Source: Candidatus Poseidoniaceae archaeon (GTDB lineage: Archaea; Thermoplasmatota; Poseidoniia; Poseidoniales; Poseidoniaceae). From it: a stretch of 64,000 bases of DNA. The position numbers and the translations under genes are program-made. Shown one piece after another: positions 13,523-49,700 of the stretch; positions within the stretch are counted from its first letter, which is position 1; each line of letters begins with the position of its first letter. The notes under the pieces are model-generated. The model saw nothing but the letters and a program-made list of their open reading frames with translations, made no database searches and was not told the DNA's origin. Location: positions 8,566 to 72,565 of the forward strand of contig JAOMOG010000006.1 of the NCBI GenBank assembly GCA_028353405.1, read 5' to 3'.

Positions 13523-13563
13523 ACAAATGCATAGTCATTAGACTATGAGCAATATCAATAAAG

Positions 13564-26971: not shown

Positions 26972-27982
26972 TCATTCGTTAAGACGAGCGATTAAATCAG
27001 CCTTCTTTCCAGAGACAGGTTTTCCTGCAGCCTTCAACAGTTCCTTCAGTTCTGCAACTGTCATTGAACTATGGTCAACGCTTGGAGCCGCCTTCTTAGC
27101 AGGTGCTTTTTCTGCAACTTCCTCTTCGGCTGGAGCTTCTTCAGCAACTTCCTCTTCAGCTGGTGCTTCTTTAGCAGGTACTTTCTCAGATTCAGGTTCC
27201 ATTGCTTCTGCTGCATCTAGAATAGATGGTGCGTCTGCAACTTCTTCCTCTTCTTCTCCGTCCATTGCTGCAGCCATTGCTGCAGCCTTCTTGGCCTTTA
27301 ATTCAGCATCTTGACGAGATTCATCTGCATGGATGTCGTCTAAAGTCGGTCCCTTATCGTTAGAAACACCTTCTTGTAGAAGTTGGCTCTTATGAATTGC
27401 CACTGACTTAACTGGGTAAATTGGCTTAACTGCGTTGAGGATTTCTCCTTCTAATTCGCCACCAAGAATTGATTCTTGTATTTTGGAGAAAGTATTCTTC
27501 GATGCATATGCACGAATAACTTCAGCTGCTTTTGAACGCATTGCTTGCTTTACTGAAGTTTGAACACGCTTTTGAGTAATAATCAAAGGCTTCAAACGAA
27601 CTAAGTAACCGTCAGTAGATACTACATCAACTACATCGTCAACCTTACCACGATAGCGGCGAATTTGACGGCGTGTGTGATCTGTTTGGTGATGATGACC
27701 GATGAATGTGGTCAATGCATCTCTGCCAACTACTTCAGTAACTCTGAATCGGAGAATAATATGCATTTTAGTAAAATCGCCATTGAATTCTTGCAATGTC
27801 ATCTCATAAATACGGCCCATAATGTGGTCGTCAGACTCACCGATTGTTTCTCCAATTTGCTTAAAGTCCCATGGATGACGAGGTGCACGAATAGTGTACC
27901 AGCGCTTCATCTTCCACTTATCACGTTGCTTACGTGCTGATGCACGTGCTCTTGCTGTTACTTTTTTGGCCATTGGATTCAC
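26972..27982 (-). CDS. rps3ae: Ribosomal protein eS1 (S3Ae) fused to an acidic repeat and a C-terminal SAP/HeH-like motif
   Basis: The N-terminal ~210 aa match S3Ae (KKVTARARASARKQRDKWKMKRWYTIRAP, IGE). They are followed by EAPAEEEVAE repeats and MTVAELKELLKAAGKPVSGKKADLIARLNE. Confidence 0.85.
   Translation of the reverse strand: MNPMAKKVTARARASARKQRDKWKMKRWYTIRAPRHPWDFKQIGETIGESDDHIMGRIYEMTLQEFNGDFTKMHIILRFRVTEVVGRDALTTFIGHHHQTDHTRRQIRRYRGKVDDVVDVVSTDGYLVRLKPLIITQKRVQTSVKQAMRSKAAEVIRAYASKNTFSKIQESILGGELEGEILNAVKPIYPVKSVAIHKSQLLQEGVSNDKGPTLDDIHADESRQDAELKAKKAAAMAAAMDGEEEEEVADAPSILDAAEAMEPESEKVPAKEAPAEEEVAEEAPAEEEVAEKAPAKKAAPSVDHSSMTVAELKELLKAAGKPVSGKKADLIARLNE
27114..27173. repeat. 2 x 30-nt tandem repeat inside rps3ae (encodes EAPAEEEVAE twice)
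   Basis: gcaacttcctcttcGgctggAgcttcttCa and gcaacttcctcttcAgctggTgcttcttTa lie head to tail. Confidence 0.85.
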
Positions 27983-31449: not shown

Positions 31450-32451
31450 TCAGCGACGACGGTTCTGCATATTTATTCGGCGCATTCCTGCCTTTTTGGA
31501 GGATTTACCTGAAGCAGGACGGGATGAACCATCGCTACTACTTGTTCCTCCAATATTCAATACGCCGGATGAAAGTAAATTGCTTACCAAGCCGTCAGCA
31601 ACATCTTCTGAACTAGCACCAGTTGACATTTCATTTTTGACGGATTGATTATGATCTATAATCCAAGATTCTCTCTCTTTCTTAGCCATATGTAACTGGT
31701 CACGTGCTTTGTCAACATCCTTCATTAATTCAACAGTCTTTTCATGCATTTCATCTGCCTTCTTTCTGAAATCAAGATATTCTTCATGGAATCTATCGCC
31801 TTCTGCTTTGAGGAAATCTCGGTGTGCGAAAACTTCATCCAATTCTTTTGATTTTTCAGTTACTCTCCCAACTGCTTCTATCATTGCTTTATGTGCAGCG
31901 TCTGCTTCTGACTTTAGGATTTTAATTGAGCCATCCAAGTCAGACAAATCAATACTAACCATATCAAATTGGGCAACCTCTGGCTCTAACTCTGCAAGAC
32001 GGCGGTGCTTCAATTTGAGATTGGCCATCATTTCCCTTTCCTTCTTAGGACCAACACTCGATGTTTCAAAGGTAGTCTCTAAATTATCAATCTCTTGCTT
32101 TAGTTGCATAAACTCGGCGGTAGCAGAACGCTTCTCGTTCTTTTCTCCGCGTCGACCCTTCGCTTGAGAGATGAGTTGACGGATTTGGTCTTGGATTGCA
32201 TTTCTCTTTTCTTTGAACAATTTAATTTCAGCACGAATAACCTTTACTTCGGAAAGGACCAGAGCTGATTTCTCTCTGTGTTCCTTGAATTGTGCTTGGA
32301 TTGCATTGCGCTTATCAGCACTCTGCTTAGCGGAATCGCTGAATGAATTACGAGTTTCTCGCAACTTGCGAACTTTCGCTTCCATTGTTTGAAGTTCTTC
32401 GCGAAGTGCCGCATCCGGCTTCTCCTCCGCTTCCTCTTTCATTCCGCGCAT
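31450..32451 (-). CDS. Long coiled-coil protein (archaeal COG1340-like)
   Basis: About 280 aa of heptad-rich charged sequence with a Ser/Gly-rich basic tail. It has the same layout as 41929-42903. Confidence 0.6.
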   Translation of the reverse strand: MRGMKEEAEEKPDAALREELQTMEAKVRKLRETRNSFSDSAKQSADKRNAIQAQFKEHREKSALVLSEVKVIRAEIKLFKEKRNAIQDQIRQLISQAKGRRGEKNEKRSATAEFMQLKQEIDNLETTFETSSVGPKKEREMMANLKLKHRRLAELEPEVAQFDMVSIDLSDLDGSIKILKSEADAAHKAMIEAVGRVTEKSKELDEVFAHRDFLKAEGDRFHEEYLDFRKKADEMHEKTVELMKDVDKARDQLHMAKKERESWIIDHNQSVKNEMSTGASSEDVADGLVSNLLSSGVLNIGGTSSSDGSSRPASGKSSKKAGMRRINMQNRRR

Positions 32452-34822: not shown

Positions 34823-37333
34823 TTATTGTGAATCCGCTTTGAACACTACTTTGCACGCAGGACAACGTACGGAGCCAGAATAATCTGTTGGAACTCTTAA
34901 CGACTGAGAGCAATCCGGGCAAGAAACCTCTTTCTTTTCTTGTTTTTCAACTTCTTCGACTTCCTCTTCTTCTTGAGGTGGCTCGTCTCTTGAATTAACA
35001 TCAAATCTATTTGAACAGTCTGGACATCTAACTTTACCAGAATATGATGCTGGAACTCGTAATTGCCTAGCACATTCAGGACAACCAACTTGCACCTTTC
35101 TATCTGTACTAGATGCTGAAGTTTTTGACTTTTTAATAGGCTTCTTGGCCTTTGGAGTTTTATTTTTAGTTTTGGAGACAGAAGATTTCATATCACTTGA
35201 AGAGTTCTTGAGCCTCATTGCAAGAATTACTGCACCTGCAATTGCGATACCAGATATGATTCCAATAAATGGAACATCATATGATTGAGAAGAAGAAGTA
35301 GCACTGATGCCGGAATTGTATGATTGGCTTGAAGTTAATATATTCTGGTCAATACTCCATTTAGCAGTTAAAGTAACTTCAGAACCGGAAGGCCAATCAA
35401 TTGTCAAAGTAATCTCTTTTTCCTCACCTGCAAGTAAGATTCCAGTCTCACTTTGAACTAAGAAATTGCCATTGCCATCAACTAAAATTATTTGCCCAGC
35501 AATACCGTCGACTAAACCGTTATTTGAAATTTTGATAGTAATACTAGTTTCATCGCCGAATGTTGGATCTCTTGGGGAACTGAGAGGATCCATTTCAACA
35601 TAATACTCAGGTCGCTCCGATGGAACTGATTTAATTACAGAAGTAGGACCTGGTCCTATTGTCCAATTAATTGAGTTGATACGAATTACTACTTTATCGG
35701 CATCCACATGTCCGATTACATATTGTCCAGTAGTCAATCCTGGAAATACTGTAATCAATGAATCAAATGGATAAATTTCCGATCCTCCTGAATCATATCC
35801 CAATCTTAATTGAATATCTCTTTCAACACCAGTATCAAGATCAATTTGCCATGTGAACGAAATCCCATCAACTGAATCCCACTCAACATTACTAATCTGT
35901 GGTGTAAGGCTTTGCTGCTCCGACACAGGTATATTGAGAACTCCCTCCAAACCAATATCTATTGCACCATTTGAAGAAACTAGGGACCAATTTACTTGAG
36001 TTTGCCCAATAGCGATCATCTGAATTGAAACCGAGACTTCACCTGCTGCATCTAATGCCAAACTTAACGGTTCACTCAAACTAACCACGCCGTTAATTTC
36101 ACAGCGTAATTGTACCAATCCATCGCTGTCGCCATGATTTCTAACCAGCATTGAGAAAGTTGCCATATCACCTTTATGCCAAGGCCCACCTAATACGGCA
36201 GGAGTGGATGACCCAGCTGCTTCAAAGGCTGCTGCTGTCATTGATAATATTGAAGACACAGAGTTGATTGAATCATCCCAAACCCTCTGCCCATCTGTTT
36301 GGCAGGTCAGAGTTCCTGGGCGCGCAGAGGCACTAACTGAAATCGTCGTATTGACACCATTAGTAAGGTCTAAAGGTTGTGAATATTCAATTTCTCCACC
36401 ACTGAAAATACAACTTAATGTTCCGTTGAAATCTATCTCACCCGTATTTGTAATAGACAGATTCCACTGTGCTAGTCCGCCCGCAGTAACATCTGTGTTC
36501 AGGTGAACTAGTTCCATGTCAATTCTAGCCAAAGGAGGTGGTCCCACCTCAAAGGTGGTAGTATGAAATAATTCAGATTGTGATGTTGGTGGGTTTAAGA
36601 TAGAGATATTTACTGTATAGTGAGAGTTTATATCGAAATTAGTTTCAGTAAATGAAGAAGACGAGTAAAATTGTGCATTCGTTGTAGTTGCACTCCCAAA
36701 TGTAATGTTTGACGTATGTGATTCTAGAACTTCTTGACCGTCGATATCGGCACTAACATTACTTGACCACTGTAAATCTCCAAGGTTTTCTATGGATGCA
36801 CTAATGATTAGATAGTCCCCCTCCCTAAGGGTTTCATTACCAGTTGGAACACCATTGAAATTGACTGGAATTAGTTCTATCTCTTCAATTGATAATTGGG
36901 CTGGACGGAGCCGTTGAATTGTTCTGTTGAATCCTGTAACATTGTTTGTATCTTCTGTTCCAATATCACCCGTCATAGTGACCATGAGATTGGAATATCC
37001 ATATGGCATATTGGAGAATGTGTAATTGATCGGCGTGTTACCGAATGCCAATACGGTGTAATTTGTTGATTGGTTATGAAGTTCTGTTCCCTCTATTGTA
37101 GAAATCACTACATTGACTTCTATTTCGGCATCCAATCCGCTCTGCTCAACGATGGTAAATGGTACTTCTAAATAGCTCTCTTCAAATGTTTCCATTTCAC
37201 CAAGTAGAATACTACTTACATCAATTACTGCTCCGCCGCCAGATGCTGAAACCAATGGTGCTAATATGACTGCAATTAGAAGAGCACAAACTAAGTTTGT
37301 TACTATGTTTGATGATGACATACGCTCCCCCAT
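34823..37333 (-). CDS. Large surface protein with a cytoplasmic tail carrying two zinc ribbons
   Basis: Has a signal/anchor (LVCALLIAVILAPLV), a ~680-aa Ser/Thr/Asn-rich ectodomain, a TM helix (FIGIISGIAIAGAVILAM) and a Lys-rich linker. Two copies of CPxCxxxLRVPxxYSGxVRCPxCxxxF follow. Confidence 0.8.
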   Translation of the reverse strand: MGERMSSSNIVTNLVCALLIAVILAPLVSASGGGAVIDVSSILLGEMETFEESYLEVPFTIVEQSGLDAEIEVNVVISTIEGTELHNQSTNYTVLAFGNTPINYTFSNMPYGYSNLMVTMTGDIGTEDTNNVTGFNRTIQRLRPAQLSIEEIELIPVNFNGVPTGNETLREGDYLIISASIENLGDLQWSSNVSADIDGQEVLESHTSNITFGSATTTNAQFYSSSSFTETNFDINSHYTVNISILNPPTSQSELFHTTTFEVGPPPLARIDMELVHLNTDVTAGGLAQWNLSITNTGEIDFNGTLSCIFSGGEIEYSQPLDLTNGVNTTISVSASARPGTLTCQTDGQRVWDDSINSVSSILSMTAAAFEAAGSSTPAVLGGPWHKGDMATFSMLVRNHGDSDGLVQLRCEINGVVSLSEPLSLALDAAGEVSVSIQMIAIGQTQVNWSLVSSNGAIDIGLEGVLNIPVSEQQSLTPQISNVEWDSVDGISFTWQIDLDTGVERDIQLRLGYDSGGSEIYPFDSLITVFPGLTTGQYVIGHVDADKVVIRINSINWTIGPGPTSVIKSVPSERPEYYVEMDPLSSPRDPTFGDETSITIKISNNGLVDGIAGQIILVDGNGNFLVQSETGILLAGEEKEITLTIDWPSGSEVTLTAKWSIDQNILTSSQSYNSGISATSSSQSYDVPFIGIISGIAIAGAVILAMRLKNSSSDMKSSVSKTKNKTPKAKKPIKKSKTSASSTDRKVQVGCPECARQLRVPASYSGKVRCPDCSNRFDVNSRDEPPQEEEEVEEVEKQEKKEVSCPDCSQSLRVPTDYSGSVRCPACKVVFKADSQ

Positions 37334-37426
37334 ATTACCACCTATGCGTATGGGGTTCTTCACCTTCACGCCAAAACATGGGTGAGGGCTATGTTTATTC
37401 TATGTTGAAAGGTCGCCCGAGAATGT

Positions 37427-38200
37427 ATGACACCTGACGAGTTGCTAAAAATCACTCCCGATTTGTTGGCACGTGCCATTTTACATCGGCGAGAGCAATT
37501 AGCAGAGGATATCCCAGAGCAGTTAGATGCTCGTCAAGAAGAGTTAGATTTCGCAGTTCCTTTAGCCAGTTTCGCTAAAGAAAAGCGCGATGAATTTGAT
37601 AAACAAATCAATGAAATAACTGACAAATGTCTTCATTCACAAAATCAAGCAAACCTAAAATTTACCAAATTAGAAAGTGATTTTCTAGTTACCGATACAG
37701 AGAACAAAGAGGTCGGGTTCGATGAATTATTACAACAGTACAAAGAAGCCAATGAAAATCATCACCAACAAACAATCATTTTAGAGCAAATGAATGATTT
37801 AGCAATAGAACAATTTGACAAAATCTCTAGTGCAAATAGTTCTGATAGTGACATAGAATCAATTAAGTCGCAACATAAGGACATATTGGATGCTATTGCT
37901 CTATCAAAAGATTCCCACGCAGAATTATTGCCACTGAAGAATGAAAAAGAGCATTTCAATAATACTTACCTTGAAAATGAAACGATGAGAAGAAGAGCTA
38001 ATTCACGAACTGCATTGCTAAGCCAAGCCCTTGATTCCAGTGAAAGGGGAATCGAACATTGGCAACAATTAATCGATAAGGGTTTTGATAGACTGCTAGT
38101 TAATGCTAAAAGAGTTAGTGCGGGTGAATATTCTACACCAGCATTATCCAAAATGAATAAGGATAAGAATTCGCAAGTGGATCGTAAAGAAGGTGCTTGA
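37427..38200 (+). CDS. Coiled-coil protein, first gene of the TENT operon
   Basis: 257 aa of heptad-rich acidic sequence. Its stop (38198-38200) is 1 nt before the ATG of the next gene. Confidence 0.6.
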   Translation: MTPDELLKITPDLLARAILHRREQLAEDIPEQLDARQEELDFAVPLASFAKEKRDEFDKQINEITDKCLHSQNQANLKFTKLESDFLVTDTENKEVGFDELLQQYKEANENHHQQTIILEQMNDLAIEQFDKISSANSSDSDIESIKSQHKDILDAIALSKDSHAELLPLKNEKEHFNNTYLENETMRRRANSRTALLSQALDSSERGIEHWQQLIDKGFDRLLVNAKRVSAGEYSTPALSKMNKDKNSQVDRKEGA

Positions 38201-38201
38201 T

Positions 38202-40235
38202 ATGAATGAAGTATGTCCAATAACTCATTTCACAGAAGAGCAGCAAAAACGCTGGCCTAATCTGCATAATTCATTAATCGGACAATTAGAATTCCCTACT
38301 GCTGCTGAAATCCCATCAGATGCTCTAGTCAGATTGAATAACGATGTAAATGAAATGCTGCGCAAGCAACTTGAACATAGTAAAAGGGATAGAAGTCGAG
38401 ACAAGTTATTCGCATTTTTGAAAAAAATATTGGAATTTAAATTTCCAGGGAGTAAATTAGACAAATTCGGTTCATCTGTAACCGGGCTTTCACTGGCCCA
38501 AGGTGACATAGATTTGTGCTTACAAATTCCAGGAAAAGTTCCTCACAAAGTTTTCAATAAAATTGGTAAACTTCTAAGATTACATGACTTTGTTGACATT
38601 GTAGTAATACCTCACGCCAAGGTTCCTATTGTAAAATGCAGAGATGGAAAAACAGGCATACCGCTTGATATTTCAGTCAACAACACACTCGCACTACAAA
38701 ATACACAATTGCTCAAAACATATTCAATGCAAGACTCTAGAGTCTCTCAGGTAATATTGGCGATTAAGCATTGGGCAACTTGTAGAGATGTTAGTGATGC
38801 ACCTTCGGGGACATTATCCTCATATTCATGGTCCATATTGAGTATCCAATCAATGCAAATGTCTTCTCCACCATTGGTAGCAAATGTCCAAACCGGTAAA
38901 AAAAGAACTATTCAACATGTTGAAGGTGATAATTATGATGTCACAATTCATCCAAACCCAAAGAGCTTACTAAAGCAACAAAATCAGCAAAACCTCGGAG
39001 AAATAATCGCCAATTTTTTCGAAACCTTTGCCAATTGGAACTGGGATTTAGATATCTGCTCTATTCGGAATGGTACTGCCCTATCCCGTGAAGAAAAAGG
39101 TTGGCTAGAACAAGATCCAACGGCTATTGACATCATCATCAATGAGGAATCGGTGAGAGTGGGCAAGCATAGTTTAGCAATTGAAGACCCATTTGATTTG
39201 AAAAGAGATCTAAGCACTGTACTTCGTGCTGAAGGAATCATGGATATTAGAGAAGAAATACTCCGGATGTGGTTCGGCATTTGTGAAGGTAATTCATGGA
39301 AAGATTTGTGTGCACTTCGAAATCCGGACAAGCATATTTCTGATAAACAATTGGACCTTTTCCACGACCTTAGAGGCAAGGAAGAGAAAGAGATCAATAG
39401 TAAAATTACAGACTATACAATCCAACTTGAGCAAGTTGAAAACAAAATAGCAGTTTGCACCGATGAAAAAGAGAAGGCCCAAAAAATCCCAGAATTGAAA
39501 AATCTTCGTAATGAAATTCATCAAAAGATATTGATACGTACCCATCATATTGAAGAGGAACTGAGTAGAATTTATCAACGCCTAACTGGAACTGTAGATA
39601 TATTCAGAGTACCTTCAATTATCACTGAAGAAAATGATTTTGCACTATTCTTTGAATTGCAACAAATGCTTCCAAAAGCTCGTGAAGCCGATAAGTTACA
39701 TCATGAATTTATTGATCTTATCAAGAAGCACACTGAAGTGCAATCAACATTATCTTCAGGCGTAGAAGGGCAATCAGTAGCGGCGCTGAAAAACGCAATA
39801 TCAATGGCTAACCGCTCTGATAGATTCTTCAATAGCAGCAATTATATTGCTCGTTATCTAGGAGAATTAATAATTGAGAAGAGGAAAATAAATAGAGAAC
39901 TAGGGCGACTAAAGTCGTGGTTGAAGTATTGTGAGGACATTAAACACCAAAAATCTCGGAAATCTAAATCGAACAGTTCAAGGTATTCAAATCATAGTAA
40001 AATGAATAAGAAATCTTACGCAGAAGTGAAATCTAAAATGGAATCTGGAGAAGGTTTATCACTCGCAGAACTAAATATTTTACTGAATAATGGAGGTCTT
40101 TTCTCAGCGGAGAAATCAACGGACAAAAAATCACCGAAGAGTAAATATTCTCGTTCCAAGAGAAAGAATTCTAATAATGATTTATCTGCGCATAGAGGCC
40201 CTAGAGGTCGCTCAAAAAATGTCCGTAAGGAGTGA
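38202..40235 (+). CDS. Cid1/TENT-family terminal nucleotidyltransferase (non-canonical poly(A)/poly(U) polymerase-like) fused to a C-terminal coiled coil and basic tail
   Basis: The Pol-beta NTase core has FGSSVTGLSLAQGDIDLCL, with the third carboxylate in IPLDISVNN. It continues NTLALQNTQLLKTY, IKHWA and GTLSSYSW. A PAP-associated-like block follows (LGEIIANFFETFANWNW, LAIEDPFDLKRDLS). The whole is colinear with my recollection of S. pombe Cid1. Confidence 0.85.
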   Translation: MNEVCPITHFTEEQQKRWPNLHNSLIGQLEFPTAAEIPSDALVRLNNDVNEMLRKQLEHSKRDRSRDKLFAFLKKILEFKFPGSKLDKFGSSVTGLSLAQGDIDLCLQIPGKVPHKVFNKIGKLLRLHDFVDIVVIPHAKVPIVKCRDGKTGIPLDISVNNTLALQNTQLLKTYSMQDSRVSQVILAIKHWATCRDVSDAPSGTLSSYSWSILSIQSMQMSSPPLVANVQTGKKRTIQHVEGDNYDVTIHPNPKSLLKQQNQQNLGEIIANFFETFANWNWDLDICSIRNGTALSREEKGWLEQDPTAIDIIINEESVRVGKHSLAIEDPFDLKRDLSTVLRAEGIMDIREEILRMWFGICEGNSWKDLCALRNPDKHISDKQLDLFHDLRGKEEKEINSKITDYTIQLEQVENKIAVCTDEKEKAQKIPELKNLRNEIHQKILIRTHHIEEELSRIYQRLTGTVDIFRVPSIITEENDFALFFELQQMLPKAREADKLHHEFIDLIKKHTEVQSTLSSGVEGQSVAALKNAISMANRSDRFFNSSNYIARYLGELIIEKRKINRELGRLKSWLKYCEDIKHQKSRKSKSNSSRYSNHSKMNKKSYAEVKSKMESGEGLSLAELNILLNNGGLFSAEKSTDKKSPKSKYSRSKRKNSNNDLSAHRGPRGRSKNVRKE

Positions 40236-40729
40236 TGAAGTTGCAAGATGGCATCCAATGGATGTTAGGTCCGGAACCAAAAAACTTGAGCCCAATATGG
40301 ACACAAGAAGTATTGCAGCTATTTTTACGCGAAAACGGTGAAGAATATTCACAGAACTCTGTTTCTAGCCTTCCAATTCCAAAATGGGGAGGCAATTTAC
40401 TACTGCTCGAAGGAACTGATATCACTAATCCAAATTGTCTGAAAGGTTTACTATGGGCTACTCCTTTTATGGATGACATTGTTAGAGTGGCAGCATTTTC
40501 AATAACATCTGAACTCCAGAGTAAAGGATATGGTAGAATGGCATGGAATTATTTTGTCGAAAGTGCAACTAAGGCTGGTTTTAGCAAAGTTCAACTCGAA
40601 GTAAAGGCGTCCAATATAAGAGGCCAAGAATTCTATAGAAAAAGAGGTCTTGTTGTAATGAATGAACTTCAGGGATACTATTCAAGTGGACTAGGATATA
40701 TGATGCGTGGCGATTTGAAAAAATATTAA
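40235..40729 (+). CDS. GNAT-family N-acetyltransferase
   Basis: Contains the acetyl-CoA motif A (VRVAAFSITSELQSKGYGRMAW) and the motif B region (FYRKRGL). Its ATG overlaps the TENT stop (TGATG). Confidence 0.75.
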   Translation: MKLQDGIQWMLGPEPKNLSPIWTQEVLQLFLRENGEEYSQNSVSSLPIPKWGGNLLLLEGTDITNPNCLKGLLWATPFMDDIVRVAAFSITSELQSKGYGRMAWNYFVESATKAGFSKVQLEVKASNIRGQEFYRKRGLVVMNELQGYYSSGLGYMMRGDLKKY

Positions 40730-40741
40730 TAAAAGCCATAA

Positions 40742-41107
40742 ATGGAATTATTTTATCTCAAAGGTTATTCCCCCATTGCTTCTGCATTAATTGTGGAACA
40801 ACGGATTCTTGCTGAGTTACTAAATTCTAGTGGCGTGGTTAGTGCCCACTTATTGGATGAAAATGGGTTGATAATGGAGAACCTTGATTCCGGACATAGT
40901 CAAGATTATTCTTCACTCATTGCTGTTATGAGTAATTCCGAAGAAAGCCAGTCTGTAACGATTACTTCTCAAAATGCAATTCTTATTGCAAATCGGTTAG
41001 AACAAAACTATTTGTTGATCGTTCGCTTACAATCATCCTGCAATTTAGGTGCTATCAGGAAGTTATTATCAAAAGCAGTGTTAGAACTCAACGCTCTTAG
41101 CCAGTGA
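40742..41107 (+). CDS. Roadblock/LC7 (MglB-like) domain protein
   Basis: The pattern LAELLNSSGVVSAHLLDENGLIMEN...NYLLIVRLQSSCNLGAIRKLL and the 121-aa length fit the Robl/LC7 fold. Confidence 0.55.
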   Translation: MELFYLKGYSPIASALIVEQRILAELLNSSGVVSAHLLDENGLIMENLDSGHSQDYSSLIAVMSNSEESQSVTITSQNAILIANRLEQNYLLIVRLQSSCNLGAIRKLLSKAVLELNALSQ

Positions 41108-41110
41108 AAT

Positions 41111-41812
41111 CTAATCAAATAATGGGCCGAGAATAACCATCCCATTTGGACCTACGTCAATTGCCATCTTTTCCATAGCATGACGGCAATGGCGCATTTT
41201 TTCAATTTGTAGAGTTCTAATTAATTTACCATTTCTTTGATCCATTCCCAAGTTAATTACCGCATCTGCTAAAAAACCTTCATTACCTTGTAATTCGGCA
41301 TTTGTCCCCACATTCCTTTCGGTGATGATAAAGACATTGAGATTCATACTGCGCAAGAAATCGAAGAAACCGAACATCTTTTTGCGCATTACTTCATCCA
41401 CAGAAGTCAACGAATAAATTGCACCTAATGAATCTAAAACAAAAGTAGTAAACCTATCACCGTGTTGTTGTTTGAAATGTTCTATCATCCTACGAGTGAA
41501 TTTCAGGTAATCCATATTTTCATTTTCTCTGCGAAGTTCCGTAAAATCAGTAAGTTGCAAATTATTTGGAACATTCAAACCCATGCTTGTAGTTCCCCGC
41601 AATAATGAATCCACACTTTCTTCAACTGTGCAGTATAGACCAAATTCACCTGTTCTAGTGAGATGATTGGATAGCAAGGTCATACAGAAACTCGACTTCA
41701 TTGAACCAGGTGGCCCGGTCACCATTGTCACATAAGGTGCACGAACATCACTCTGAAGAACTCTTTCCATTCCCTGCATTGCGCCTAGTAACATGATATC
41801 AACAATTAACAC
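41111..41812 (-). CDS. KaiC/RecA-superfamily ATPase (COG0467-like) with a deviant Walker A
   Basis: Has the P-loop region VTGPPGSMKSSF, GEFGLYCTVEES and Walker B FVLDSL, and the single-domain KaiC-like length. A start at an internal ATG is possible. Confidence 0.7.
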   Translation of the reverse strand: MLIVDIMLLGAMQGMERVLQSDVRAPYVTMVTGPPGSMKSSFCMTLLSNHLTRTGEFGLYCTVEESVDSLLRGTTSMGLNVPNNLQLTDFTELRRENENMDYLKFTRRMIEHFKQQHGDRFTTFVLDSLGAIYSLTSVDEVMRKKMFGFFDFLRSMNLNVFIITERNVGTNAELQGNEGFLADAVINLGMDQRNGKLIRTLQIEKMRHCRHAMEKMAIDVGPNGMVILGPLFD

Positions 41813-41928
41813 TGAATGCTTCTTGTCCTTAACTATTTTCTTAAAACGACTGCTAAAATCTTGTCATATTTTTCACTATTAATTCTCATTCAGCATGGTC
41901 TTTTACAATATTGAAAGATAGGCCTCTA

Positions 41929-42903
41929 ATGAAGAGGTTAAATGGGTGGGTTATGTGGGCGAGTCGGCGAGAAGATGGGAATCTTCCCCCCGAACAGGTG
42001 AGAATAGCAATGACAGACTTCAAAGAGCAACTCGAAGATCGTAGAAAAGTAGTGGATGGAAAGGCTACCGAATACAGAACTACCCGTGACGAATGGAATG
42101 GAAAAACCAAAACTCACACCACTACTCGTAACGAGTTGAATGCTGAAGTAAGAGAGTTAATTGTCCAAGTTCGGGAACAACGAGAAATACGTGAACAGAT
42201 GAACGAAATCGTTCGCGAAAAGAAATCTGCTCGCTCTGCTGCAAGTGATGCGGTTAAAGCTGCAAAATTAGCACTTGAGAATGCCAAGGGTCCACAGCAA
42301 GCTGCTCCACCTAGAGAGGCTGGCAGAAAAGGAAAGTGGGAAAAGAGACCTCCAACCGTTCATTCATTGAAAAAGGATTTGAACAGACTAGAAAATGAGT
42401 TTGAGCAAGGGAAACATACTGGTAATAATGAGACCAAGGTAATGAAGAGAATGAAGGAAATTAATGCAGAAATCAAAAAGTTGAAGAAATTTGATGATTC
42501 CAATGGCGATTTAAGGGATGCTCGCACTGCAGTTCACGAAGCAATGGCTCAGCAAGAGATTGCCCACGAAGAAGTGCAAAAGGCTGCAACTGCTGCTCAA
42601 GAAGCTCACGAATTGATGCTTCAGTGGAATGAAGAAGTTGACCGCCAAAGAGAACTTGCTGAAACTGCACACCGAGGCCTACGAACTTCAAAGAAGGAAG
42701 CAGATAAGGCTCACCGCTTTTACATCGTATCACTACGATGTCTGCATTCGATCCAAGATATGCTAAGAGCAATGCGAGGTGCATCTGCTGGTGCTGGCCA
42801 GAAGCCAACTGCACGTGTTGAAGTTCAAGATTTAATGGGCAAATTAATGTCCGGTCAAACACTTACTACTGAGGAATTAATGCAACTTCAGAGTTTTGAT
42901 TGA
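41929..42903 (+). CDS. Long coiled-coil protein (archaeal COG1340-like), paralog-like to 31450-32451
   Basis: Charged and heptad-rich throughout (EWNGKTKTHTTTRNELNAEVRELIVQVREQREIREQMNEIVREKK). The start is uncertain (TTG 41911 or ATG 41929). Confidence 0.6.
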   Translation: MKRLNGWVMWASRREDGNLPPEQVRIAMTDFKEQLEDRRKVVDGKATEYRTTRDEWNGKTKTHTTTRNELNAEVRELIVQVREQREIREQMNEIVREKKSARSAASDAVKAAKLALENAKGPQQAAPPREAGRKGKWEKRPPTVHSLKKDLNRLENEFEQGKHTGNNETKVMKRMKEINAEIKKLKKFDDSNGDLRDARTAVHEAMAQQEIAHEEVQKAATAAQEAHELMLQWNEEVDRQRELAETAHRGLRTSKKEADKAHRFYIVSLRCLHSIQDMLRAMRGASAGAGQKPTARVEVQDLMGKLMSGQTLTTEELMQLQSFD

Positions 42904-42966: not shown

Positions 42967-44124
42967 ATGTTATCAAAGGACGATATTGCTGAACTTGTTG
43001 AGAATTACGACAGAATGAAGTTACGCATCGGTATGACTGCATCTCATTCTGCTCTAGATATCTGTGATGGAGCAATTGAAGAAGGGTTTCCTACTGTTGC
43101 ATACTGCAAAGAAGGACGTCACAAAACTTATGCAAATTACTTCAAAGCACACCGTTCATCCTCCGGAAGAGTATTTCGCGGAATGGTTGACAAAGCGATA
43201 GTTATGCCTTCATTCAATGATGTAATGGATTCTGATATGCAAGCAGAAATGCGCAAGAGAAATGTCATCTATATCCCAAATCGTTCTTTCACATCCTATT
43301 CTTCTATTGAAGATGTTGAAAATAACTTCCGTGTTCCTCTATTTGGATCTAGAAACATGTTGCGAATGGAAGAAAGAACAGAAGAGCAAGATTACTATTG
43401 GATTTTAGATAAAGCGGGATTACCTTATCCTGAAGCAATTGCAAACCCAGAGGATATTGATTGTCTAGTAATCGTAAAACTTCACCATGCACAAAAGAAA
43501 TTGGAGAGAGGATTTTTCACTTGTGCATCATTCCAAGAATATCAAGACAAATCTAAAACCCTTATCGCTGAAGGAATTATTGACCAAGAATCATTAGAAG
43601 GCGCTAGAATTGAGAGATATGTTATCGGTCCAGTATTCAATCTGAATTTCTTCTATAGCCCACTTGCTGATGAAGGAGAGCGATTAGAGTTACTCGGTGT
43701 CGATTGGCGCTTTGAGTCTTCACTAGATGGCCATGTGCGCCTTCCTGCCCCACAGCAGATGACTATGCCTGCTCACCAGCAAATTCCAGAGATGACTGTT
43801 GTTGGACACAATACTGCAACTATTAGAGAATCATTACTCGAAGTTGCATTTGAACTTGGAGAGAAATTCATTAAGGCAAGTAAAGAACACTATGATCCAG
43901 GAATCATTGGCCCGTTCTGCCTACAAACATGTATTGACAAGGATATGAATTACTACATCTATGACGTTGCACCTCGTTTAGGTGGAGGAACAAATGTTCA
44001 CGTCAGTGTTGGACATCCATATGGAAATGCTACATGGAGAAAACCAATGTCAAGTGGCCGACGTATTGCAATGGAGATTAGAATTGCTGCAGAACAAGAC
44101 AGATTGTTAGAAGTTCTAACATGA
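42967..44124 (+). CDS. purP: 5-formaminoimidazole-4-carboxamide ribonucleotide (FAICAR) synthetase PurP
   Basis: Has the N-terminal block IGMTASHSALDICDGAIEEGFPTV and ATP-grasp blocks. This is an archaea-specific purine step. Confidence 0.85.
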   Translation: MLSKDDIAELVENYDRMKLRIGMTASHSALDICDGAIEEGFPTVAYCKEGRHKTYANYFKAHRSSSGRVFRGMVDKAIVMPSFNDVMDSDMQAEMRKRNVIYIPNRSFTSYSSIEDVENNFRVPLFGSRNMLRMEERTEEQDYYWILDKAGLPYPEAIANPEDIDCLVIVKLHHAQKKLERGFFTCASFQEYQDKSKTLIAEGIIDQESLEGARIERYVIGPVFNLNFFYSPLADEGERLELLGVDWRFESSLDGHVRLPAPQQMTMPAHQQIPEMTVVGHNTATIRESLLEVAFELGEKFIKASKEHYDPGIIGPFCLQTCIDKDMNYYIYDVAPRLGGGTNVHVSVGHPYGNATWRKPMSSGRRIAMEIRIAAEQDRLLEVLT

Positions 44125-46638: not shown

Positions 46639-46769
46639 TTTAACAATTAATTCGTTATAGTCGAATGTACTATCAAGAACTCAGAATCGTGAATCTGTAT
46701 TGATATATTGGATAGTTTAACAACGAATGTTACCCAAATCTCTTTGGTGAGGTGCAATCATTACAACTC

Positions 46770-49700
46770 ATGAAGGGACGCGCATTGCTGCTTGTACTGC
46801 TGTTGCTGGGTTCATTTCCGGCGTTTCAGGGCAATGCAGGCTCTACTACTCATTTCGGTAATTCAGCCTCGCAGGTCTCTATTCTACTGGATTTCAATGG
46901 ACCTGGATATGACTCTAGTACCAACATCAGCATCGGTGCTAGTTCGGTAATCACTACTGCAGCACTCGACATCAGAGGTCTTGCCAATTCAAGCGGTGAA
47001 AGGCCCGAATCCATCGGGCTAGACATTGGAGATGACGGTGATATGGATTGGTTTTGGGGCGGTCCTGGGAATGGCACCTATGGACATCTGGATGAATTTT
47101 CAAACGGATATCAGCGAGCCGGACTGAACATGTCCACCGGCAATAATTCTAGTTATCATCTCCGTCTGCCAATCAATGCCACGATAACCTCTGCGTCAAT
47201 GCAGTTTTCGACACTAAGCGAACTGACGATATCTGGTAGTGATGTACGCGACTCCTACTTGCATCAACCGCACCCAAACTATGGTAACACGACTCACGCA
47301 GATTGCAACTACGGTAATCAAAGCGCCACCCACGTTGGTAAAACAGAGTGGGTAAATTGGCATATTTATCGAGGTGTATACTGGTTCGATCTGGGCTTAT
47401 TACCTGGAGCAACAGTTCTAGATGCCAACCTCTCATTCTACGTTCAAGATGCAGTAAATCGGGCTTCGACCACAACTCCTGTGAGCACTCAGCACACCTA
47501 CTCAGTACATCCTTTACTGAAACATTGGGAGGAAGGTCTTGAGAGTAATTCACAGGTATCACAAGCTGCAGGCGTAACCTGGAATAAAGCGATCGACAAC
47601 CTCACAGGCAGCGATTCTTCTTGGTCGTCCGCAGGTGCCTCTGGCACAACCGACCGAGATGTTGCAGTTGCAAGTGTAACTGATAGTCCTGCAAATCTCG
47701 AGTACAACTGGCTCGACTTCAATAATCAAAACTTGACAGATTTGGTACAGAATTGGGTTGATGGCAATGTTACCAATAATGGACTTATTCTCATTGGTGA
47801 TGAAAATACAAACAAGCCAGATGGATCTAGATTGACCATCACATCAAGAGATAACGCCACACATGGACCGAAATTGGTAGTTGTATTCGAGGGTAGCGAT
47901 GATGTAACGGCCGCCCTTGATGTTGGCGCAGATGGTAATTGGGAGTGGAATCATAGCGGAAATCTCAGCAATGCATCGTCAGTTCCCGATTTTTCTGCCT
48001 CTCTGAATTCATATCTTGGCAATGCAACTCCAAGTTTCACCGATGCGTGGGGTAATGAATTCGTAGACATTCCGCTTAAAGTAAGCGCAAATGCAACATT
48101 GGTTCTCGATGGGATTGACATTGAATATGACTGGACTGCTGCAGTTGGAGCATCGCCTCATTCAGACCTGCTTAGTGAATTGAATCAACATGCTTCTAAT
48201 CTCACACCAGATGCTGCTGGCAATGTTAGTATCATCATTAATGTCAGTTCAGGTAGTGCCGGAAAGGTGGAATTACTCAACCTATGGTTGGGGCAGGGTG
48301 ATCGTCCACCTTCCATCACAGCAGTTACACTGCCTGGAGAGACTATTGTCCCCGATGGTCAATCTCGGGCTTTGAGCATCGATGTCACCTCATACCAAGG
48401 TGTATCGAATTTATCATGGCTTGCTATGATTCCACAACTACAGAACATTTCCAGTCAACCCACACTATTCCATTCTTTTGAAAATGACACTACATGGGTC
48501 GATGACCCTGCTGGACTTGTTAGCAATATCAGTGGTTCGTGGATGGCATTGAACAATCAGAGTGGTATCATGACGTGGGATCTCACAGCCAGTTGGTCAT
48601 GGTTGCCTGAGTTAGATGTTGTTTGGGAGGTTCAGGCGAAGACCATTGATTTACTCCACACAAGTAGGCTTTCAAGCCAGACTACAGATCATGAACGCAG
48701 AGTGGAAATTACCAGTTTTACAGCCTGGGACATGAGTGAACCGACTGAGGGCAGTCCGCAGATTTATGCTGATGAATGGGTCGCAGGTGGTGATTTATTA
48801 CGCATAGGAGGTTCTGTACGATTCCTCGATCTAACCAGTCACCCACTCCCAGGTGATGTTCTCATCGAACTAGTTGACATGAGTGCGAATTCAACAGTAG
48901 ATTCCAATGGTATTTACTCAATCGAGGTGTTTGCTCCACAGGATAGTCACTATGACGGATTTACCATTGCAGCCCATATTTTAGGACCATATGATTCAAC
49001 TGAGCCAGGACTTGCATCACTTACTTTCAACATTGATGCGACGAAGCCAGGTTTCCAAGCAAATGCGCCTCTTGGTGAAAGAATCCTACCCTCTTACCAG
49101 CAATTGTTCAATGTGACTATCACCGACGGTACCGATAGCGATGGGCTTGACATCGGCAGTCTACGTCTGAGGTGGTGGGTCGAAGATCTGCACGATAATG
49201 GCGATGGTATTCCTCAACTAGAGGAATATGGTCAGAAGCAACTTCTCAGGGAAGGGGAGAGTGATTTTTTCCACGCACAATATGATGATACATACAATTC
49301 ACACGGCCAGCAGGTATCTCTGTTCATTGAGGGCTTTGACAAGGCCGGTAATGCAATCTTGAGTGGCTCTGGATTTGAAGCAGATTTAGTCCATTACATT
49401 TCATTAGTTCCTTCTCCAACCGAGGTAGTATCCGTCAATATGGATTTCCCAGGTGGTAACACACTTACACCTGCCCACCCAGGATGGCTAAACATCAGCA
49501 TTAGAGATGTAAACGGCCTAGATGATATCGAAGGCATCATCATCGATCTTGGTCTAGGTAATACACTGTCCTACGATAAAGATGGGTCGTTTGAGTCGAG
49601 TAATTCATTGCTTGAGATTTCAGAATTTAGATTAGAAACCCAAGGAGATGAAATTACTCTCAACCTTTCATTCACTGCATCTCCGATATTTGATGATATG

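What the first reader, a model, noticed from the sequence alone, without database searches (positions are those of the whole stretch)
38202..40235. Eukaryote-type Cid1/TENT terminal nucleotidyltransferase in an archaeal context, fused to a ~290-aa coiled coil
Seen in sequence: the N-terminal ~390 aa carry the full signature of non-canonical poly(A)/poly(U) polymerases.
- The hG[GS] and DxD motifs are in FGSSVTGLSLAQGDIDLCL (about 38466-38522).
- The third catalytic Asp is in IPLDISVNN (about 38667).
- The central family-specific run reads NTLALQNTQLLKTY..D.RV..L..IKHWA......GTLSSYSW.
- A PAP-associated-like block follows (LGEIIANFFETFANWNW...SLAIEDPFDLKRDLS).
- The C-terminal ~290 aa are heptad-rich and end in a Lys/Arg/Ser tail (SKRKNSNN..RGPRGRSKNVRKE).
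Established knowledge: the Cid1/GLD-2/TUT family is regarded as eukaryotic. The usual archaeal Pol-beta NTases (CCA-adding enzyme, MNT-type) have a different architecture, and archaeal RNA tails are attributed to the exosome.
Inference: this is either a eukaryote-to-archaeon transfer or an undescribed archaeal TENT clade. The coiled coil may tether it to a partner or to the ribosome.
Basis: partly seen in the sequence, partly recalled or inferred. Interest (0 to 1): 0.85.

Follow-up and report, generated by a model that had tools for sequence, protein, structure and literature searches.

The report
Eukaryote-type RNA-tailing enzyme in marine archaea
A gene in this marine Group II archaeon (Poseidoniales) encodes a genuine, apparently active RNA-tailing enzyme of the Cid1/TUT4-7/URT1 type, otherwise found in eukaryotes, fused to a new helical tail domain and kept at the same genome position in at least 80 (probably about 93) archaeal species, which suggests these abundant ocean archaea mark RNA 3' ends much as eukaryotes do.

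Summary
ORF 38202-40235 (+, 677 aa) is a true Cid1/TUTase-type terminal nucleotidyltransferase:
- Pfam gives PF22600 at 4e-29 and PAP_assoc at 1e-12.
- The best solved relatives are TUT4/7, URT1, CutA and Cid1.
- The AlphaFold model superposes on URT1 (TM 0.91) and CutA.

All catalytic and NTP-contact residues are conserved in 118-119 of 119 related loci. The contig is archaeal: it carries an archaeal RNase P RNA and archaeal neighbour genes.

The gene is a syntenic core gene of Poseidoniales. A scan of GTDB genomes found 93 species. All 80 loci kept have the same gene order, and 42 of 42 independently sampled loci carry the gene.

The archaeal proteins form one clade (NJ bootstrap 95). Their nearest relatives are all eukaryotic. 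One old eukaryote-to-archaeon transfer is the most economical reading, but no rooted tree was made.

The C-terminal ~285 aa are helical with family-specific invariant motifs and a +16 basic tail. They match no known fold.

The uracil-selecting His (Cid1 H336) is kept in 108 of 119 loci. In this window's subclade it is Arg, as in the C-adding enzyme CutA, and the change is coupled to R339T.

I found no literature on this family. It is a new variant of a known kind; interest is moderately high.

The parts
38202..40235 (+). TENT gene: Cid1/TUTase-type terminal nucleotidyltransferase fused to a helical C-terminal domain (677 aa plus stop)
38334..38726 (+). Palm (catalytic NTase) domain, aa 45-175, PF22600 MTPAP-like_central
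   Evidence: E 4.2e-29; AF2 pLDDT 80-94
38466..38477 (+). hG[GS] motif FGSS (F89 G90 S91 correspond to Cid1 F88 G89 S90)
   Evidence: G90 and S91 are identical in 119 of 119 loci; Cid1 contacts from PMC3479196
38502..38522 (+). GDIDLCL: metal-binding carboxylates D102 and D104 (Cid1 D101 and D103)
   Evidence: 118 of 119 loci; 1 ambiguous base
38664..38684 (+). LDISVNN: third catalytic Asp, D156 (38667-38669)
   Evidence: 119 of 119 loci
38694..38708 (+). LQNTQ: N167 and T168, equivalent to Cid1 N171 and T172 (ribose 2'-OH contact and pyrimidine O2 sensor)
   Evidence: 119 of 119 loci
38808..38831 (+). GTLSSYSW: S207 and Y208, equivalent to Cid1 S211 and Y212 (gamma-phosphate contact; base and ribose stacking)
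38991..39203 (+). PAP-associated (fingers/central) domain, aa 264-334, PF03828
   Evidence: E 1.3e-12
39180..39227 (+). Nucleotide-recognition motif IEDPFDLKRDLSTVLR. R335 (39204-39206) sits at the position of Cid1 H336 and CutA R557. T339 sits at the position of Cid1 R340.
   Evidence: aligned with Cid1; the H336N mutant entry 4fhx shows N at this column; CutA R557; R335/T339 coupled in 9 of 9 loci; H/R in 101 loci
39378..39971 (+). C-terminal helical domain, aa 393-590. Three ~47-aa helices (395-442, 473-519, 542-588) plus two short ones. Carries the invariant motifs FxxFFELQxM (39639-39671) and RExGRLxxW (39891-39920).
   Evidence: no fold match below E 0.1; no significant match to DUF7121
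40017..40100 (+). Short conserved helical motif YAEVKSKMESGEGLSLAELNILLNNGGL (family consensus EVKxxxxSGxxLSLxDLxxLLxxGG), flanked by disordered basic linkers
   Evidence: weak resemblance to the C-terminal end of DUF7121 proteins (E 0.017)
40101..40232 (+). Disordered Lys/Arg/Ser tail ending in the invariant RGxR core of a conserved HRGxRGxSK motif. Net charge is +16 over aa 586-677.
37427..38200 (+). Upstream partner ORF (257 aa, coiled coil, distant DUF7121-like). Its stop lies 1 nt before the TENT ATG. Present upstream of TENT in 79 of 80 genome loci.
   Evidence: PF23435 is recorded for its orthologues in L002 and L087
40235..40729 (+). GNAT acetyltransferase. Its ATG overlaps the TENT stop (TGATG). 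Conserved downstream in 77 of 80 loci.
40742..41107 (+). 121-aa protein, weak Roadblock/LC7 match. Conserved after the GNAT gene in 75 of 80 loci.
   Evidence: Robl_LC7 E 0.01, below the curated cutoff

Best explanation
The gene encodes a catalytically competent, template-independent RNA 3'-terminal nucleotidyltransferase of the Cid1/URT1/TUT4-7/CutA branch.

Origin (inferred). An ancestor of the Poseidoniales most likely acquired it once from a eukaryote. It then fused to a ~285-aa helical domain and a basic tail, and has since been inherited vertically as a core gene.

Mechanism (inferred from conserved residues and the fold):
- D102, D104 and D156 bind the metal ions.
- S91, K189 and S207 hold the triphosphate.
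- Y208 stacks on the base.
- N167 and T168 read the ribose 2'-OH and the pyrimidine O2.
- The motif EDPFDxxH/R selects the base.

Most family members keep the uracil-selecting His and are predicted to be uridylyltransferases. The subclade of this window has the coupled change H335R/R339T. This reproduces the Arg of CutA, so a shift towards C (mixed C/U/A) addition is predicted.

The helical domain probably dimerises or docks the co-transcribed upstream coiled-coil protein. The +16 RG-containing tail probably holds the RNA.

By analogy with Cid1, URT1, TUT4/7 and CutA, the short pyrimidine tails would mark RNAs for decay or surveillance. Fold, residues, phylogenetic distribution and synteny are shown here. 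Activity, nucleotide choice, partners and targets are inferred.
For: Family membership:
- Pfam hits.
- Profile against PDB: URT1 2e-70 over the whole module, TUT7 4e-85, CutA 7e-61, Cid1 1e-56, GLD2 1e-50, Trf4 only 2e-23, canonical PAP 1e-5.
- Foldseek: CutA E 5e-21, URT1 TM 0.91.

Active-site integrity:
- G90, S91, D102, D104, D156, N167, T168, K189, S207, Y208 and D329 are identical in 118-119 of 119 loci.
- They map onto the Cid1-UTP contacts described in PMC3479196.

Base selector:
- The column of Cid1 H336 is fixed by the alignment, and the H336N mutant entry shows N there.
- In CutA this position is R557. R557H raises U incorporation and R557A raises A (PMC7498324).
- The family has H in 108, R in 9, and L and V in 1 each of 119 loci. 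R335 always comes with T339. An independent R/S pair occurs in P0125.

Archaeal core gene:
- 93 GTDB species hits. The 80 kept are all Poseidoniales, Poseidoniaceae or unclassified euryarchaeal MAGs, including the first MG-II genome, CM001443.1.
- Gene order is identical in all of them.
- 42 of 42 loci sampled through the DUF7121 neighbour carry the gene.
- TENT distances track PurP distances (Spearman 0.75).

Origin:
- Among 1.84 billion representatives, 13 clear family representatives (368-616 bits) are followed directly by eukaryotic proteins (322 bits and below): molluscs, Filamoeba, Fabomonas, Pigoraptor and a red alga.
- The archaeal clade has NJ bootstrap 95/100.

Operon:
- A 1-nt gap upstream and a TGATG overlap downstream.

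Not a defence system:
- No PADLOC hit and no relatives in IMG/VR.
Against: - There are no biochemical or transcript-end data.
- Nucleotide choice cannot be read safely from the His/Arg position alone. Some U-adders lack the His, and TUT1/Star-PAP has it yet adds A (bioRxiv 10.1101/422972).
- No U- or C-tail reader (Dis3L2-like nuclease, Lsm) was looked for or found.
- The direction of transfer rests on parsimony and similarity ranking, not on a rooted ML tree. The midpoint root simply separates archaea from eukaryotes.
- The GTDB scan used family-specific peptide patterns, so divergent TENTs in other prokaryotes could have been missed.
- One syntenic family member (P0180) has lost all catalytic residues but keeps the C-terminal motifs. 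So the protein also has a non-catalytic role that I cannot name.
- The catalytic module evolves about five times faster than the neighbouring PurP (mean p-distance 0.51 against 0.10). That is unusual for a housekeeping enzyme.
Confidence: 0.6

Rival explanations
1. [quoted passage not shown] It adds A tails and so supplies the A-rich tailing that other archaea obtain from the exosome.
For: - The family also matches GLD2 (1e-50).
- The His is not an absolute predictor of U addition.
- CutA with Arg at this position polymerises A processively (abstract of PMC7498324).
- Archaeal tails described so far are A-rich and made by the exosome (PMC1635327, listed).
Against: - Similarity ranks URT1, TUT4/7, CutA and Cid1 above GLD2 and far above Trf4 and mtPAP.
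- The pyrimidine sensor N167 and the His are conserved.
- The Cid1 His must be mutated to give A specificity.
Confidence: 0.15
2. It is an ancestral archaeal TENT lineage, not a transfer. Either eukaryotic Cid1-type enzymes descend from such archaeal genes, or both descend from a common ancestor.
For: - The unrooted NJ tree puts all archaeal sequences on one side and all sampled eukaryotes on the other.
- The gene is old within Poseidoniales, with identity down to ~33% and fixed synteny.
Against: - Relatives were found only in Poseidoniales-type genomes among 185,579 prokaryotic species, although the search patterns were family-specific.
- No other archaeal group appears between the family and the eukaryotes in the library-wide ranking.
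- The family is much closer to one eukaryotic subfamily (URT1/TUT4-7/Cid1) than to others (Trf4, mtPAP, TUT1, canonical PAP). This fits a nested position.
- Poseidoniales are not close to the archaeal ancestors of eukaryotes (established knowledge).
Confidence: 0.07
3. The fold has been recruited for another substrate (protein nucleotidylylation, a small-molecule or cyclic-nucleotide signal, or antiviral defence), or it acts mainly as a scaffold.
For: - It evolves fast.
- A catalytically dead syntenic variant keeps the C-terminal domain.
- The neighbours (GNAT, Roadblock-like, KaiC-like) are not RNA enzymes.
Against: - NTP and ribose contacts typical of RNA TUTases are strictly conserved.
- The fold matches RNA-bound CutA, URT1 and TUT7 structures.
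- There is no PADLOC hit.
- The locus is a fixed core region, not a variable island.
- The basic RG tail fits RNA binding.
Confidence: 0.08
4. It is an assembly chimera or eukaryotic contamination within an archaeal bin.
For: None beyond the eukaryote-like sequence.
Against: - The same flanking genes appear on 80 independent genome assemblies, on contigs up to 2.06 Mb in GTDB genomes and 839 kb in ENA.
- The window carries an archaeal RNase P RNA.
- Start and stop codons are tightly coupled to the neighbours.
- There are no introns, and G+C is even.
Confidence: 0.01

Closest known systems
Arabidopsis URT1 (UTP:RNA uridylyltransferase 1; PDB 6l3f, 7xs4)
   Same: - Best full-module match: the family profile aligns to URT1 residues 28-352 at 2e-70.
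- The model superposes at TM 0.91, rmsd 2.3 A.
- Same catalytic triad, same SSY and NT motifs, and nearly the same selector motif (IEDPFETSHDLGRVV in URT1 against VEDPFDxxHDLSRVL in the family consensus).
   Different: - URT1 is eukaryotic, with a long disordered N-terminal region that binds decapping and decay factors.
- The archaeal protein instead has a ~285-aa C-terminal helical domain and a basic tail.
- The window protein has Arg in place of the His.
Human TUT4/TUT7 catalytic module (PDB 5w0n, 8oef, 9w4r)
   Same: - Highest sequence scores: 1e-43 for the single sequence and 4e-85 for the profile.
- Identical DPFDL context in the selector motif (TUT7 IEDPFDLNHNLG).
   Different: - TUT4/7 are proteins of 1,500-1,650 aa with a second, inactive NTase module and CCHC zinc knuckles.
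- They are recruited by Lin28.
- None of these parts is present here.
Fungal CutA (CUCU-tagging C/U/A transferase; PDB 6ywn, 6ywo, 6ywp)
   Same: - Top Foldseek hit (E 5e-21, TM 0.82, 28% identity).
- Same Arg at the base-selecting position: CutA R557 and window R335.
   Different: - CutA acts on deadenylated eukaryotic mRNAs.
- The Arg arose independently here, within a His-type family, and is coupled to R339T.
- The primer-binding elements of CutA were not compared.
S. pombe Cid1
   Same: - Same fold and the same NTP contacts (S90, D101, D103, N171, T172, K193, S211, Y212, D330).
- Minimal single-module architecture.
   Different: - Cid1 has no C-terminal helical domain.
- His336 against Arg335.
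- Cid1 K197 has no Lys counterpart; the invariant R195 lies two residues further along.
Archaeal Pol-beta nucleotidyltransferases (class I CCA-adding enzyme, MntA/MNT minimal NTases) and exosome-made tails
   Same: Same superfamily palm with hG[GS] and DxD. Same general task of adding nucleotides to RNA 3' ends (CCA enzyme, exosome).
   Different: - No CCA-enzyme match.
- MntA scores only 14 bits against a cutoff of 60.
- The PAP-associated domain and the type II recognition motif are absent from those archaeal enzymes.
- The exosome makes heteropolymeric A-rich tails by phosphorolysis in reverse (PMC1635327 and PMC4227792, listed).

Membership tests
Cid1/TUTase-type non-canonical terminal nucleotidyltransferases (TENT; Pol-beta superfamily) | hG[GS]-x(7-13)-DxD plus a downstream third Asp | tested here: met
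   F89-G90-S91, D102, D104 and D156 are present. They are identical in 118-119 of 119 loci.
Cid1/TUTase-type non-canonical terminal nucleotidyltransferases (TENT; Pol-beta superfamily) | PAP-associated (central/fingers) domain carrying a type II nucleotide-recognition motif | tested here: met
   PF03828 scores 48 bits against a cutoff of 22.6. PF22600 scores 102 bits against a cutoff of 27. The IEDPFD motif aligns with Cid1, URT1 and TUT7.
Cid1/TUTase-type non-canonical terminal nucleotidyltransferases (TENT; Pol-beta superfamily) | Two-lobed palm plus fingers fold superposable on solved TUTases | tested here: met
   AF2 pLDDT is about 76-96 over aa 1-370. Foldseek gives URT1 TM 0.91, Cid1 0.86, CutA 0.82 and TUT7 0.82-0.89.
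Cid1/TUTase-type non-canonical terminal nucleotidyltransferases (TENT; Pol-beta superfamily) | Conserved NTP contacts (Cid1 S90, K193, S211/Y212, N171/T172, D330) | tested here: met
   S91, K189, S207/Y208, N167/T168 and D329 are invariant. Cid1 K197 has no Lys counterpart; the invariant R195 lies nearby.
Cid1/TUTase-type non-canonical terminal nucleotidyltransferases (TENT; Pol-beta superfamily) | Template-independent addition of NMPs to RNA 3' ends | not testable with these tools
   Needs recombinant enzyme assays or 3'-end sequencing.
Uridine-specific TUTases (Cid1, TUT4/7, URT1) | His at the Cid1 H336 position, hydrogen-bonding uracil O4 | tested here: not met
   The window protein has R335. 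The His is present in 108 of 119 related loci, so it is met for most of the family but not for this subclade.
CutA-type C/U-adding enzymes | Arg at the base-selecting position (CutA R557) | tested here: met
   R335 occupies the H336/R557 column. Other CutA-specific elements (primer shelf, Asn397 context) were not compared, and activity was not tested.
Canonical poly(A) polymerase | PAP_central domain with a type I recognition motif, and a C-terminal RNA-binding domain | tested here: not met
   PAP_central scores 12.8 bits against a cutoff of 27.1. The profile against PAP structures gives only 1e-5 over partial stretches.
[quoted passage not shown] | Match to the family models and the tRNA-NT architecture | tested here: not met
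   NCBIfam gives MntA 14.1 bits against a cutoff of 60 and no CCA model hit. No such structures appear among the 50 Foldseek matches listed.
CD-NTase / OAS / defence-associated NTases | Match to defence-system models, with an effector gene nearby | tested here: not met
   No PADLOC hit for the protein or four of its neighbours. DncV matches only at E about 0.6 on an 86-aa fragment. The locus is a fixed core region.
DUF7121 (archaeal coiled-coil proteins), considered for the C-terminal domain | Profile similarity to PF23435 or to the neighbouring DUF7121 paralogues | tested here: not met
   No PF23435 hit in 10 C-terminal domains. hhalign probability is 2.7%; only a 29-residue terminal motif aligns, at E 0.017.

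The most novel reading that the evidence does not exclude
Poseidoniales, among the most abundant archaea of the surface ocean, run an RNA 3'-pyrimidine-tagging pathway. An enzyme captured from a eukaryote adds the tags (uridylation in most lineages; cytidine-rich or mixed tails in the subclade of this window). The enzyme works in a complex built by its own helical domain and the co-transcribed coiled-coil protein. This would be the first uridylation-type RNA surveillance system outside eukaryotes, and it would come with a natural His-to-Arg switch of tail chemistry within one orthologous family.
Probability: 0.35. Interest if true: 0.8.

Novelty: new variant of a known kind. Interest (0 to 1): 0.66.

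Why it matters
RNA tailing by Cid1/TUT-type enzymes is treated as a eukaryotic trait. Archaeal RNA tails are attributed to the exosome.

A conserved, apparently active TUTase in a whole order of very abundant marine archaea would matter for three reasons:
- It extends uridylation-type RNA control to prokaryotes.
- It is a clear case of a eukaryotic RNA-metabolism gene domesticated as an archaeal core gene.
- It offers a natural experiment on nucleotide selectivity: His/Arg in most members against the coupled Arg/Thr pair in this subclade, in otherwise orthologous single-module enzymes that should be easy to express.

It also makes a concrete prediction that existing ocean metatranscriptomes could test: non-templated U or C at the 3' ends of MGII transcripts.

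Tried and rejected
- **DUF7121 origin of the C-terminal domain.** Three DUF7121-like genes lie in the neighbourhood, so I asked whether the C-terminal domain is a DUF7121 paralogue. Pfam scans of 10 C-terminal domains gave no PF23435 hit. hhalign against the downstream DUF7121 and the upstream ORF was not significant. Only a short terminal motif resembles DUF7121.
- **Fold search of the C-terminal domain alone.** The AF2 model has pLDDT 72. Only generic coiled coils matched (Smc, V-ATPase stalk, SH3BP5), all at E above 0.1.
- **Rooting the tree.** The 150 best library representatives hold no GLD-2, Trf4 or mtPAP outgroups, and midpoint rooting only separates archaea from eukaryotes. Nestedness is unresolved. 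I relied on similarity ranking and on distribution.
- **Looking for related loci that lack the gene.** I hoped to see whether the upstream ORF exists without it. All 42 informative metagenome loci found through the DUF7121 neighbour carry the TENT. The sample is biased towards close relatives.
- **Viral carriers.** No relatives in IMG/VR.
- **Defence-system membership.** No PADLOC hit.
- **Literature.** No paper links Poseidoniales or Marine Group II with Cid1, TUTase or nucleotidyltransferase, and none mentions DUF7121.
- **Identity of the nearest eukaryotes.** Most are unnamed metagenome ORFs. One that I checked lies in a gene-poor, eukaryote-like contig.
Full report
**What is there**

The ORF runs from ATG 38202 (an in-frame GTG lies at 38193) to TGA 40233-40235 and encodes 677 aa.
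- FGSS at 38466-38477.
- GDIDLCL at 38502-38522.
- LDISVNN at 38664-38684, with D156 at 38667-38669.
- IEDPFDLKRDLSTVLR at 39180-39227.

Pfam gives MTPAP-like_central (PF22600, 4.2e-29, aa 45-175), PAP_assoc (PF03828, 1.3e-12, aa 264-334), TUTase (PF19088, 6e-8) and NTP_transf_2. All are above their curated cutoffs.

Against solved structures the single sequence matches the catalytic modules of TUT4 and TUT7 (1e-43), URT1 (1e-36), CutA (2e-33), Cid1 (3e-28) and GLD2 (4e-26).

A profile of ten family members ranks the solved structures as follows:

| Structure | E-value |
|---|---|
| TUT7 | 4e-85 |
| URT1 (whole module) | 2e-70 |
| CutA | 7e-61 |
| Cid1 | 1e-56 |
| GLD2 | 1e-50 |
| TUT1 and mtPAP | ~1e-32 |
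| Trf4 | 2e-23 |
| Canonical PAP | 1e-5 |

An AlphaFold2 model built with 17 homologues has mean pLDDT 77, and about 76-96 per ten-residue block over aa 1-370. Foldseek matches CutA (E 5e-21, TM 0.82), URT1 (TM 0.91, rmsd 2.3 A), TUT7 and Cid1.

**The context is archaeal and not chimeric**

- The window carries an archaeal RNase P RNA (633-929, 223 bits) and two tRNAs.
- The neighbours are a PurP-type FAICAR synthetase (DUF1246/DUF1297), a KaiC-like ATPase, DUF7121 coiled-coil proteins, a DtxR-type repressor and a CARDB/zinc-ribbon surface protein.
- G+C is 0.37-0.45 throughout.
- The upstream ORF stops 1 nt before the TENT ATG. The TENT stop overlaps the ATG of the next gene (TGATG).

**Distribution**

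A search of 5.8 billion proteins returned 250 hits, of which the best 120 are listed. Most are full length (673-726 aa) at 33-93% identity and 85-100% coverage. All are from marine metagenomes. Every listed hit whose source names an organism is a Poseidoniales, Poseidoniaceae or unclassified euryarchaeal MAG.

A scan of one genome per GTDB species (185,579 species) found 93 species with a relative. The 80 kept are all Poseidoniales-type MAGs. They include the original MG-II genome CM001443.1 and one MAG labelled Thalassarchaeaceae. The search patterns were specific to this family, so other, divergent prokaryotic TENTs cannot be excluded.

Across all 80 loci the order is the same, apart from truncation at contig ends:

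DtxR(-) / CARDB protein(-) / upstream coiled-coil ORF(+) / TENT(+) / GNAT(+) / ~110-aa protein(+) / DUF7121(+) / PurP(+)

A KaiC-like gene is inserted only in the subclade of this window (five GTDB loci).

In an independent sample of metagenome loci retrieved through the DUF7121 neighbour, 42 of 42 loci with enough upstream DNA carry the TENT.

Pairwise distances of the TENT catalytic module track those of PurP (Spearman 0.75). This fits vertical inheritance. The module evolves about five times faster, with mean p-distance 0.51 against 0.10.

**Origin**

A profile search of 1.84 billion cluster representatives gave 13 clear family representatives (368-616 bits; the full-length ones are 673-726 aa), and then an immediate drop to 322 bits. 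The proteins below the drop that carry a name are eukaryotic:
- TUT4/7-like CCHC proteins of molluscs.
- Filamoeba, Fabomonas and Pigoraptor.
- A red alga.

One unnamed relative lies on a gene-poor, eukaryote-like contig.

A neighbour-joining tree of 157 catalytic modules recovers the archaeal sequences as one clade in 95 of 100 bootstraps.

I had no GLD-2, Trf4 or mtPAP outgroups. The tree is therefore unrooted in effect, and midpoint rooting falls between archaea and eukaryotes.

The most economical reading is a single, old transfer from a eukaryote into an ancestor of the Poseidoniales. It rests on three points:
- The family sits in one archaeal order, whereas the enzyme type is universal in eukaryotes.
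- The family is specifically closer to one eukaryotic subfamily than to the others.
- No other prokaryotic group intervenes in the ranking.

This is inference, not a tested topology. No relatives were found in IMG/VR viral contigs.

**Active site and nucleotide choice**

Using the Cid1-UTP contacts described in PMC3479196, the counterparts here are:

| Cid1 residue | Role in Cid1 | Window residue |
|---|---|---|
| S90 | beta/gamma-phosphate | S91 |
| D101, D103 | metal binding | D102, D104 |
| third carboxylate (numbering from memory) | catalysis | D156 |
| N171, T172 | 2'-OH contact; pyrimidine O2 sensor | N167, T168 |
| K193 | triphosphate | K189 |
| S211, Y212 | phosphate contact; base stacking | S207, Y208 |
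| D330 | water-mediated N3 contact | D329 |

Each of these is identical in 118 or 119 of 119 loci. The enzyme is thus predicted to be active.

The uracil-selecting His336 of Cid1 aligns with R335 of the window protein. The column is unambiguous because the H336N mutant entry 4fhx shows N there.

CutA, the fungal C/U-adding enzyme, has R557 at this position. R557H increases U incorporation and R557A increases A (PMC7498324).

Across the 119 loci, position 335 is His in 108, Arg in 9, and Leu and Val in one each. All nine Arg loci belong to the subclade of this window. All nine also have Thr at position 339, where 103 of the other 110 loci, like Cid1 (R340), have Arg. A second, distant family member (P0125) shows an R/S pair.

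I infer that most family members are uridylyltransferases and that this subclade has shifted towards C or mixed addition.

A caveat applies. An unbiased screen found U-adders without the His and A-adders with it (bioRxiv 10.1101/422972).

**C-terminal half**

Residues 393-590 are predicted as three helices of about 47 residues (395-442, 473-519, 542-588) linked by shorter ones. After a disordered basic linker come two short helices (604-614, 621-629). A disordered tail follows (634-677, pLDDT below 50).

This half is less conserved than the catalytic half: 25-32% identity to the more distant clades (64% within the window's own clade), against 38-48%. It nevertheless contains invariant positions that a generic coiled coil would not need:
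- FxxFFELQxM.
- RExGRLxxW.
- The LL pair of the motif SGxxLSLxDLxxLL.
- The terminal RGxR.

The last 92 residues have net charge +16.

No Pfam family (only coiled-coil noise), no solved structure (best E 0.17) and neither neighbouring coiled-coil protein matches it significantly.

One syntenic orthologue (P0180, locus L087) has lost the GS, DxD, third Asp, NT and SSY motifs and has a degraded EDPF motif. It still keeps the C-terminal motifs. So this half has a function that does not depend on catalysis.

I infer a scaffold or dimerisation role, with the tail binding RNA. The tightly coupled upstream ORF, a divergent DUF7121-like coiled coil, is the obvious candidate partner.

**Comparison with what is known**

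The enzyme works like, and is a member of, the Cid1/URT1/TUT4-7/CutA group of non-canonical TENTs. It differs in four ways:
- Host domain: archaea.
- Architecture: a single catalytic module plus a new helical domain and basic tail, with no zinc knuckles, no second NTase module and no disordered N-terminal region.
- Genomic setting: an operon-like core locus.
- In this subclade, the selector residue.

It is not a CCA-adding enzyme, an MntA-type NTase, a CD-NTase or a canonical PAP.

Archaeal RNA tails described so far are A-rich heteropolymers made by the exosome, and exosome-less archaea lack tails (PMC1635327 and PMC4227792, listed).

I found no paper connecting Poseidoniales or Marine Group II with this enzyme family. 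Public annotations call it 'hypothetical protein', 'nucleotidyltransferase domain-containing protein' or 'DNA polymerase sigma'.

**Verdict**

This is a real, conserved feature that appears undescribed in the papers I could search. The enzyme kind is well known, so I rate it a new variant of a known kind.

Interest is moderately high (0.66). An archaeal TUTase clade would surprise RNA biologists. It also makes uridylation-type RNA control in prokaryotes directly testable. However, activity, targets and the direction of transfer are still inferred.

Noticed in passing
window 37427-38200 (+): A 257-aa coiled-coil ORF whose stop lies 1 nt before the TENT ATG. It has a conserved N-terminal motif (MTPEDLLxVSPDLLAKAILHRRE) and a conserved C-terminal motif (LLVDAKRVxxGGxSS). 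It is present upstream of the TENT in 79 of 80 genome loci. Its orthologues in L002 and L087 carry a DUF7121 hit, and hhalign to the downstream DUF7121 is weak (E 6e-4, probability 28%). It is a likely partner of the TENT.
   Followed up: partly
window 31450-32451 (-), 37427-38200 (+), 41911-42903 (+): Three DUF7121-type coiled-coil genes lie within 12 kb. The downstream one is highly conserved (64-69% identity where the TENT is 35-40%). It ends in ARVEVQDLMxKLMSGxTLSTEELMQLQxFD, which resembles the TENT motif EVKxxxxSGxxLSLxDLxxLL (hhalign E 0.017). Its true start in the window is probably the Met at codon 34 (near 42010), judged from orthologues.
   Followed up: partly
window 41111-41812 (-): A KaiC-like ATPase gene (PF06745, 4.5e-29) is inserted between the Roadblock-like gene and DUF7121. 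Among the 80 GTDB loci it occurs only in the subclade of this window (5 loci), and in a few related metagenome loci. The same lineage carries the H335R/R339T change.
   Followed up: partly
window 40235-40729 (+) and 40742-41107 (+): A GNAT acetyltransferase whose ATG overlaps the TENT stop, followed by a 121-aa protein with a weak Roadblock/LC7 match (E 0.01). Both are conserved downstream of the TENT in 75-77 of 80 loci. Their functional link to the TENT is unknown.
   Followed up: partly
L087 6001-8082 (protein P0180; JGI metagenome 3300003894): A syntenic orthologue with every catalytic motif destroyed (DxD to GEFGV, third Asp to Asn, SSY to GND) but the C-terminal helical-domain motifs intact. 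It is a natural pseudo-enzyme version of the family.
   Followed up: partly
window 26972-27982 (-): Ribosomal protein eS1 (Ribosomal_S3Ae, 1e-53) carries a C-terminal SAP domain (PF02037, 5e-12). This is an unusual fusion of a ribosomal protein with a nucleic-acid-binding motif best known from eukaryotes.
   Followed up: no
window 633-929 (-): An archaeal RNase P RNA (RF00373, 223 bits, full length). It is useful as an independent marker that the contig is archaeal.
   Followed up: yes
window 13563-13638 (-): ARAGORN calls a tRNA-Pro(TGG) here, but the Rfam gathering-threshold scan reported only the tRNA-Lys at 6946-7019.
   Followed up: no
window 34823-37369 (-), 46752-50990 (+), 51004-54459 (-): Very large predicted surface or secreted proteins. 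One is an 848-aa CARDB protein with C-terminal zinc ribbons, divergently transcribed from the TENT operon. One is a 1,412-aa CARDB protein. One is a 1,151-aa subtilase with P-domain, MopE and TSP3 repeats.
   Followed up: no
window 38202-39377 compared with 42967-44124, across 108 loci: The TENT catalytic module evolves about five times faster than the adjacent PurP (mean p-distance 0.51 against 0.10), while every active-site residue stays fixed. This pattern is more typical of conflict-related or partner-coevolving proteins than of housekeeping enzymes.
   Followed up: partly
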